From contig OX597822.1 of assembly GCA_951406725.2 (NCBI GenBank), positions 110,732,001 through 110,796,000 of the forward strand: a DNA stretch of 64,000 bases, read 5' to 3'. The translations under genes and the position numbers were made by a program. Source of the DNA: Octopus vulgaris. Taxonomy: Eukaryota. Positions 49,128 to 49,490 of this stretch are shown here, in pieces. The notes under the pieces are model-generated. The model was not told the DNA's origin and did no database searches. It worked only from the letters and a program-made list of their open reading frames with translations. Within the stretch, counting starts at the first letter, position 1; every line of letters begins with the position of its first letter.

Positions 49128-49422
49128 AAGTTGTGGCGTGCTCCTGTAATCCAGCTACTCGGAGGCTTGGTTGGTTGTCCGGTTTGAGGATGGGAGTCCT
49201 GGTAGTCGGTCTTCTATGGCGATCGGGTGTCCGCGCTAAGCTCGGCATCAATATGGTGCTGGAGAGGGAGCTCATCAGGACCAGGTTGTCTAAGGAGGGT
49301 CGCTTCGGCCCAGGGCGGAAACGCAGCAGGCAAAAGACTCCGTGTCTAGCAGTAGTGGGATCGCGCCTGTGAATAGTCGTTGGCTGGCAGCCTGTTCGAT
49401 ATAACTAAACACCAATCTTTTT
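49128..49422 (+). ncRNA. 7SL: Signal recognition particle (7SL) RNA sequence, gene or retrocopy
   Basis: Colinear with metazoan 7SL: GTGGCG..CCTGTAATCCAGCTACTCGGAGGCT; CGATCGGGTGTCCGC.CTAAG.TCGGCATCAATATGGTG; helix 6 GAG-GGAG-CTC; ACCAGGTTG.CTAAGGAGGG; helix 8 GGCCCAGG-GCG-GAAA-CGC-AGCAGG; CAGTAGTGGGATCGCGCCTGTGAATAG; ends in TTTTT. Confidence 0.95.
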
Positions 49423-49428
49423 AGAAAA

Positions 49429-49490
49429 AGGTGGTGCTCCAGCATGGCCGCAGTCAAATGACTGAAACAAGTAAAATAAAAAAAAGAATA
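49429..49490 (+). mobile_element. Family B SINE / CR1-type 3' tail fused to the 7SL sequence
   Basis: AGGTGGTGCTCCAGCATGGCCGCAGTCAAATGACTGAAACAAGTAAAA, one mismatch to the tail of 48393-48814. Confidence 0.92.

What the first reader, a model, noticed from the sequence alone, without database searches (positions are those of the whole stretch)
49128..49490. 7SL RNA fused to a LINE-derived SINE tail: candidate 7SL-derived SINE in an invertebrate
Seen: a ~290-nt near-complete SRP RNA with structure-preserving helix 6 and helix 8, apparently lacking its first few 5' nucleotides. It is followed by TTTTTAGAAAA and then GGTGGTGCTCCAGCATGGCCGCAGTCAAATGACTGAAACAAGTAAAA, which is the family B SINE tail and homologous to the CR1-group LINE 3' end at 61824-61862. 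Established: 7SL-derived SINEs (Alu, B1) are mainly known from Euarchontoglires, lack the S domain and use L1 via poly(A), whereas CR1/L2-type RTs need their own 3' tail. Inference: either an independent SINE family that keeps the S domain and is mobilised by a CR1-group LINE, or a one-off template-switch chimera like U6-L1. The internal T5 would require Pol III read-through for the tail to be transcribed.
Basis: partly seen in the sequence, partly recalled or inferred. Interest (0 to 1): 0.9.

Follow-up and report, generated by a model that had tools for sequence, protein, structure and literature searches.

The report
7SL RNA captured by retrotransposon tail
This is an inserted DNA copy of the cell's 7SL RNA joined to the last ~50 bases of a jumping gene; the genome holds dozens of such 7SL fusions with different tails, and U6, tRNA and 5S fusions at the same spot, likely made one at a time when the copying enzyme switches templates, so it is probably not a self-copying SINE family.

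Summary
Window 49130-49420 is a near-complete 7SL copy (216.6 bits) fused to a ~50-nt SINE/LINE tail. Two related organisms lack both parts at this site, so it is one insertion, not a gene with a chance neighbour. The census found 69 7SL loci: 16 genes (0 fused) and 53 dispersed copies; 37 of 41 with an intact 3' end are fused, same strand, to a retroelement piece (background 40 of 6,449). But tails come from at least six donor types, linkers differ, tail type does not follow the 7SL tree, and the window's junction is unique. U6, tRNA with trailer and 5S are fused at the same place, the base of the tail's first hairpin, where about half of these LINEs' copies stop anyway. Best reading: recurrent independent chimeric retrocopies of the U6/L2 kind, likely by template jumping onto 3'-oligo(U) Pol III RNAs. 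Known in kind; the fixed junction, the range of captured RNAs and the A/G-rich linkers are the new features.

The parts
49129..49131 (+). 5' junction: AGT shared by the target site and 7SL nt 7-9 (3-nt microhomology); 7SL nt 1-6 absent
   Evidence: empty-site contigs run to 49131; alignment to gene L015 starts at nt 7
49129..49419 (+). 7SL (SRP) RNA copy, Alu and S domains, 4 substitutions seen in no other aligned copy (49178, 49347, 49381, 49407)
49418..49422 (+). T5: the 3' oligo(U) end of the captured RNA; would act as a Pol III terminator before the tail (inferred)
   Evidence: genes end in T-runs at the same place
49423..49426 (+). 4-nt purine linker found in neither the 7SL genes nor the usual donor context
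49427..49476 (+). 3' tail of the family-B SINE type: AAA, hairpin 1 (49430-49449), hairpin 2 (49451-49464), start of terminal repeats
   Evidence: fold z -3.3, 1 of 200 shuffles as good; same two hairpins in other tails, 3 of 13 pairs with two-sided changes
49477..49490 (+). A-rich end of the insertion; 3' junction at 49490/49491; 4 target letters replaced, no target-site duplication
   Evidence: (joint 49131 to 49491 in runs X5 and X7)
57908..61890 (+). LINE of the tail-donor group: ORF1-like frame 57908-58849, endonuclease + reverse transcriptase frame 58678-61410, tail 61824-61862, ATCA repeats; a relative of the likely mobilising enzyme, not shown to be the donor
48400..48636 (-). long copy of the family-B SINE showing the tail in its usual context

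Best explanation
The locus is a single insertion of a near full-length 7SL copy joined to a ~50-nt retroelement tail, one of dozens of such fusions in this genome, likely made independently when a LINE reverse transcriptase copies the tail and then jumps to the 3' end of a free Pol III RNA. Steps: (1, shown) tails of several LINE and SINE families share two hairpins; (2, shown) about half of the LINE copies sampled end within ~10 nt of the base of hairpin 1; (3, inferred) the enzyme primes on the tail at a nick, runs off or stalls at that base, perhaps because only the protein-bound tail survives decay; (4, inferred) the cDNA end, TTT copied from the AAA before the hairpin, pairs with or is joined to the U- or A-tailed 3' end of 7SL, U6, tRNA precursor or 5S precursor, and the enzyme copies that RNA; (5, shown for this locus) the product integrates with a 3-nt 5' microhomology, 4 target letters lost and no duplication; (6, inferred) the copy is dead as a SINE because it lacks the upstream element and keeps the T-run ahead of the tail.
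For: Empty site lacks both parts in two organisms. 37 of 41 dispersed copies with a 3' end fused on the same strand, 0 on the opposite strand, 0 of 16 genes, background 40 of 6,449. Donors differ: 24 hairpin-start tails (family-B type and four LINE tail types), 2 longer family-B pieces, 9 of a second SINE, 2 RTE-like tails. The supported 7SL clade (99/98) holds gene L028 and seven dispersed copies with four tail types; five of six tail labels are no more clustered than shuffles. Same fusions with other RNAs: 17 of the top 25 U6 loci (7 genes, 1 unclear); 18 of 55 T-run/tail loci have a Rfam U6, tRNA or 5S hit directly upstream. tRNAs keep their 3' trailer and one appears to keep its intron (L253, by eye), so precursors were copied. 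Hairpin-base junction enriched: family-B tails 8 of 10 in chimeras vs at most 4 of 59 in random DNA, p 2e-6; LINE tails 13 of 13 vs 33 of 60, p 0.001. Known precedent with tail-recognising LINEs: U6-L2, U6-Mon1, U6-RTE (PMC4476161, passages).
Against: No assembled gene is an exact source: the window copy differs from genes at 10-16 of 290 sites, and the seven group-B copies share one substitution absent from gene L028 and the other two genes shown; this fits an older or unassembled gene but also a transcribed dispersed copy as RNA donor. One tail label (two copies, T3) is clustered, with negligible branch support. Sequence alone cannot separate template jumping from RNA ligation before reverse transcription. 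No RNA data were obtained. The census is a lower bound (patterns with up to 3 mismatches). The family-B-type tail could come from an unfound partner LINE rather than the SINE.
Confidence: 0.8

Rival explanations
1. The chimeras are independent, but the join is made at the RNA level (RtcB-type or other ligation of the Pol III RNA to a 5'-OH tail fragment) before reverse transcription.
For: Shown for human U6/L1 (PMC6789731, passages). A narrow junction zone fits a protected or cut RNA fragment. Full-length, sense-only captured RNAs.
Against: RtcB needed a 2',3'-cyclic phosphate and worked poorly on 3'-OH U6; 7SL, tRNA trailers and 5S precursors normally end in 3'-OH (recalled). Whole SINEs are joined at their natural 5' start, which should carry a triphosphate (recalled). 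Extra linker letters in 15 of 20 7SL junctions.
Confidence: 0.1
2. A low-copy 7SL-derived SINE: one or a few chimeric masters are read through the T-run and retrotranspose as units.
For: SINE-like architecture; five copies share a similar junction type; group B shares one substitution not seen in its nearest gene.
Against: 53 dispersed copies, under the 100-copy criterion (PMC3531059); T-run and linker lengths differ and tails belong to several subfamilies within one 7SL haplotype; window junction unique; no internally deleted family seen; upstream element absent, 5-18 of 40 identity vs 21-40 in 15 genes.
Confidence: 0.05
3. Two steps: a 7SL retrocopy inserted first and a short tail later targeted its T/A-rich end.
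For: The second SINE often sits behind other elements' A/T-rich ends and is half of the background hits (20 of 40), so some of those 9 cases may be sequential.
Against: Only 4 of 41 copies with an intact 3' end lack a detected partner, none is fused on the opposite strand, and 0 of 16 genes with longer T-runs are hit; no organism sampled shows 7SL without tail at this site (four runs).
Confidence: 0.04
4. A functional, syntenic 7SL gene with a chance downstream SINE fragment.
For: Intact fold.
Against: Absent from the orthologous site in two organisms; 5' end cut; upstream element missing (10 of 40); genes cluster on contig C5.
Confidence: 0.01

Closest known systems
U6-L2, U6-Mon1, U6-AnolisSINE2 and U6-RTE chimeras of platypus and lizard (Doucet 2015, PMC4476161; passages read)
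   Same: Small Pol III RNA joined in sense to a short 3' piece of a tail-recognising LINE or its SINE; short or no duplications; ascribed to template switching.
   Different: Here the RNA is 7SL (also tRNA and 5S precursors), mostly full length whereas platypus U6 is mostly 5'-truncated; the junction sits at one hairpin base across several donor families; invertebrate host.
Human U6/L1 and rare 7SL/L1, tRNA/L1 chimeras (PMC6789731; PMC11838501; passages read)
   Same: Full-length small RNA ending in a T-run, then a 5'-truncated LINE; 7SL/L1 and tRNA/L1 exist at a few to 21 loci.
   Different: L1 junctions are variable and flanked by 6-19 bp duplications; here the junction zone is narrow, there is no duplication, and fusions are the main form of dispersed 7SL.
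SINE1 families: Alu, B1, hagfish SINE1-1_EBu (PMC7245038; first quarter and passages read)
   Same: 7SL-derived 5' part; the hagfish element has a LINE-derived tail and is thought to have begun as such a chimera.
   Different: They lack the S domain, have uniform structure and thousands of copies (2,363 for hagfish); none of this holds here.
P7SL_MD and P7SL_Cpo (full-length 7SL plus poly(A); as described in PMC7245038)
   Same: Full-length 7SL retrocopies not accepted as SINEs.
   Different: Those end in poly(A); these need a LINE/SINE tail and number tens.

Membership tests
SINE1 (7SL-derived SINE family) | At least 100 interspersed copies | tested here: not met
   53 dispersed loci, lower bound; criterion from PMC3531059
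SINE1 (7SL-derived SINE family) | Uniform structure: same junction and same LINE-derived module among copies | tested here: not met
   different donors and linkers; window junction unique
SINE1 (7SL-derived SINE family) | Substitutions shared among copies but absent from the cellular RNA genes | tested here: inconclusive
   window copy: 4 private, none family-shared; group B: one shared site absent from gene L028, yet four tail types
SINE1 (7SL-derived SINE family) | Deletion of the S domain | tested here: not met
   model 1-299 matched; no shared internal deletion among loci
SINE1 (7SL-derived SINE family) | LINE-related 3' tail | tested here: met
   30/39 identity to window LINE end, shared hairpins
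SINE1 (7SL-derived SINE family) | Pol III transcript covering head and tail | not testable with these tools
   only assembled contigs were offered; T5 lies before the tail
Small-RNA/LINE chimeric retrocopy (U6/L1, U6/L2 kind) | Small RNA 5', sense-oriented 5'-truncated retroelement 3' | tested here: met
   37 same-strand, 0 opposite of 41
Small-RNA/LINE chimeric retrocopy (U6/L1, U6/L2 kind) | Both parts arrive in one insertion | tested here: met
   one contig each in runs X5 and X7 skips 49132-49490
Small-RNA/LINE chimeric retrocopy (U6/L1, U6/L2 kind) | Independent origin of copies from the cellular RNA | tested here: met
   tail type scattered over 7SL haplotypes; same tails on U6, tRNA, 5S
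Small-RNA/LINE chimeric retrocopy (U6/L1, U6/L2 kind) | Target-site duplication around the whole chimera | tested here: not met
   4 letters replaced, none duplicated; no convincing duplication in 16 copies. Typical of L1; only 1-9 bp or none for L2 chimeras
Functional 7SL gene of this genome | Conserved upstream element, intact 5' end, conserved position | tested here: not met
CR1-group LINE (window element) | Endonuclease plus reverse transcriptase ORF2 and structured 3' tail with short repeats | tested here: met
CR1-group LINE (window element) | Placement in the CR1/L2 clade by RT phylogeny | not tested

The most novel reading that the evidence does not exclude
These LINEs have a built-in run-off point at the base of their tail hairpin and capture whatever Pol III precursor ends in oligo(U) or a short A/G tail, filling the genome with hundreds of ready-made SINE prototypes of all three classic head types (7SL, tRNA, 5S) plus U6; the retained terminator is the gate that stops them becoming SINEs, and the A/G-rich linkers (100 of 111 extra letters) are fossil copies of mixed tails added to 7SL RNA that pair with the cDNA end.
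Probability: 0.3. Interest if true: 0.75.

Novelty: new variant of a known kind. Interest (0 to 1): 0.5.

Why it matters
SINEs are thought to begin as exactly this kind of small-RNA/LINE-tail fusion, but the first step is rarely seen in numbers. This genome shows it repeatedly for 7SL, tRNA, 5S and U6 with one tail position, and shows that forming a 7SL fusion is easy while amplifying it is not. That makes a standing question testable: why 7SL-derived SINEs are so rare (terminator retention, loss of the upstream element, need to delete the S domain). It also warns annotators that most dispersed SRP, U6 and some tRNA hits here are retrocopies, not genes.

Tried and rejected
High-copy SINE: rejected by census. 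Recurrent AGAAAAA linker as native context of a hidden donor family: rejected, 3 exact hits. Target-site duplications: none convincing in 16 copies; matches were simple A/T repeats. A tRNA-Thr-like head plus LINE tail at 10 loci looked like a chimera that became a SINE; the copies share sequence on both sides, so it moved as a passenger of a larger unit. A self-cleaving ribozyme at the hairpin base: considered by eye only, rejected because 5' ends vary over about 15 nt and Rfam gave no hit. Extrapolating 4 of 30 captures (CI 4-31%) to about 700: dropped; on contig C1 only 9 Rfam-positive loci have the commonest junction form against roughly 400 tails (my estimate). The Fisher test for LINE tails used a miscounted table and is replaced; L095 was mistyped as a LINE tail (small effect on linker counts). 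Runs X2 and X4 show no empty site, but only the 3' junction in X2 is bridged by 31 or more letters on each side, so presence in organism B is suggestive only. miRNA hits are on AT repeats and were ignored. Earlier findings: none.

Full report
Observation. The window holds one Rfam hit, Metazoa_SRP at 49130-49420 (+), 216.6 bits, full model. It is followed by T5, a 7-nt A/G stretch and, from 49430, a tail matching the end of an abundant SINE (family B, e.g. 48400-48636 minus) and 30/39 identical to the end of a LINE at 61824-61862, whose long frame carries endonuclease and reverse transcriptase domains. The tail folds into two hairpins (z -3.3) kept in five other natural tails, 3 of 13 pairs with two-sided changes (six hand-picked sequences, so weak as covariation evidence). 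The host is an animal genome of 2.8 Gb; I read it as an octopus from repeat families whose names (OK, OR1, OR2) I recall and did not match by sequence. 'CR1-group' is likewise untested by phylogeny.

One insertion. Laying four DNA-type runs, runs X5 and X7 (organisms C and D) each have one contig joining 49131 to 49491 with four other letters between: both 7SL and tail are absent. The first three matched 7SL letters are shared with the target; there is no duplication. Run X2 (organism A) bridges the 3' junction; X4 (organism B) enters the element by 26-27 letters on each side, short of the tool's bridging rule. Flanks differ by 17 and 12-13 letters per ~310 in C and D, by 6 and 9 on the left in A and B. 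An insertion after the split from C and D is the simplest reading (inference) and fits 4 private substitutions in 290 nt.

Census. DNA, Rfam and pattern searches (33, 51 and 53 pattern matches) gave 69 distinct loci, all fetched and inspected. Sixteen on contig C5 are genes by my classification: 13 in a tandem array, 3 apart; 15 share a 40-nt upstream element (21-40 of 40 identical to L015; the sixteenth has a 5' deletion), against 5-18 for dispersed copies and 10 for the window copy; they end in T-runs and none is fused. Of 53 dispersed loci, 41 keep the 3' end and 37 of these have a same-strand retroelement motif within 45 nt, none on the opposite strand; 6 of 12 3'-truncated copies are also fused; in 400 kb of evenly picked DNA 40 of 6,449 T-runs are. 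The motifs were chosen after seeing the loci, so the contrast is somewhat inflated, but the same motifs were applied to the background.

Not a family. Donors are the family-B tail, four LINE tail types, longer family-B pieces, a second whole SINE and an RTE-like tail (label by eye). In a tree of 33 near-full copies (2 of 35 dropped as partial or diverged), the supported clade (99/98) joins gene L028 with seven dispersed copies carrying four tail types; the window copy groups weakly (86/74) with gene L091 and three copies that each have a different tail; five of six tail labels are no more clustered than shuffles, one (two copies) is, on an unsupported branch. The window's junction 31-mer occurs three times, the other two in long family-B copies without 7SL. 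Against this: no assembled gene is an exact source, and group B shares one substitution not in L028.

Not only 7SL. Of the best 25 of 48 U6 loci, 7 look like genes, 1 is unclear and 17 are fused to the same tails or whole SINEs (by eye). A pattern for T-run plus LINE tail gave 91 minus-strand matches (plus-strand counts are redundant; about 180 loci by doubling); of 55 fetched from the first 100 rows, 18 have a Rfam hit directly upstream: 5 U6, 11 tRNA (3 of them one duplicated unit), 2 5S; two further listed loci are known 7SL and U6 fusions. Four more are another SINE subfamily that owns this tail. The tRNAs keep 3' trailers up to the T-run.

The junction site. Among the first 30 exact copies of each of two LINE tail groups (5,491 and 1,566 genome-wide), 19 and 14 stop within about 10 nt of the base of hairpin 1 (by eye; a script gave 22 and 14), and 4 of the first 30 carry U6 or tRNA. 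7SL fusions use this site in 13 of 13 LINE-tail cases and 8 of 10 clear family-B cases, against at most 4 of 59 family-B tails in random DNA (three diverged family-B-like fusions left out). Fifteen of 20 7SL junctions have two or more extra letters: 82 A, 18 G, 6 C, 5 T; nine U6 junctions have shorter extras (p 0.04). In human cells 7SL RNAs are the Pol III RNAs most often A-tailed, mainly by one A (PMC12811392, abstract and passages); G-containing mixed tails by TENT4 are recalled (title only seen). RNA tail versus enzyme-added letters is undecided.

Mechanism and rivals are given above: template jumping (0.80), RNA ligation (0.10), low-copy SINE (0.05), two-step targeting (0.04), gene (0.01). 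End-to-end jumping by a LINE enzyme is known from R2 (Bibillo and Eickbush 2004; title seen in a reference list; content recalled).

Literature. Passages read: PMC4476161, PMC11838501, PMC6789731, PMC4494074, PMC5786205, PMC4758252, PMC3531059, PMC12811392; PMC7245038 first quarter and passages. The class is known, including tail-recognising LINEs and a few human 7SL/L1 loci. Searches listed no paper describing 7SL, tRNA or 5S tail chimeras in a cephalopod or a fixed hairpin-base junction; the library lacks most subscription papers, Repbase and Dfam, and I read no supplements (those of PMC4476161 and PMC11838501 may list comparable loci).

Verdict. Real feature, new variant of a known kind, not a SINE. 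Interest 0.5, carried by the genome-wide pattern rather than by this copy.

Noticed in passing
L188-L247 (around position 1500 of each): About half of the sampled copies of two LINE tail groups are only the ~50-nt tail (19 of 30 and 14 of 30): a strong 5'-truncation hot spot at the hairpin base.
   Followed up: partly
L253:1535-1647 (-): tRNA-Leu-like copy that appears to keep its intron and 3' trailer, fused to a LINE tail: an unspliced precursor was copied.
   Followed up: partly
L282:485-603 (-), L289:308-426 (+): Full 5S rRNA with short trailer fused to a LINE tail: SINE3-like prototypes.
   Followed up: partly
L317-L327 (around 1440-1600): One tRNA-Thr-like head plus LINE tail present at 10 loci with shared sequence on both sides: a chimera spread as a passenger of a larger mobile or duplicated unit.
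   Followed up: partly
L218:~1380-1500 (+), L313 (-): An ~110-nt GC-rich sequence with no Rfam hit, ending in an A-rich stretch and T-run, sits before two different LINE tails at two unrelated loci: possibly an unannotated small RNA or SINE.
   Followed up: no
L286, L290, L291, L308: A SINE subfamily with an identical junction to a LINE tail in four copies: a real tail swap, and a picture of what a uniform family looks like.
   Followed up: no
L010-L012, L016-L025 (G000:C5:143.067-143.116 Mb): Tandem array of 13 7SL genes at 3-6 kb spacing with a conserved upstream element; L017 has lost its 5' end.
   Followed up: partly
L131-L135 (G000:C1:139.42 Mb): Tandem array of five variant U6 genes; this variant also occurs in fusions (L136, L146, L280).
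   Followed up: no
L098, L102, L120 (5' ends): Short direct repeats of the 7SL 5' end just upstream of the copy, as expected from enzyme slippage at the 5' junction.
   Followed up: no
window 57908-61890 (+): Near-intact LINE: 910-aa open endonuclease/RT frame and an ORF1-like frame with a weak CCCH/Torus match.
   Followed up: partly
window 53700-56150: About 2.4 kb of (AT)n-type repeat just upstream of the LINE.
   Followed up: no
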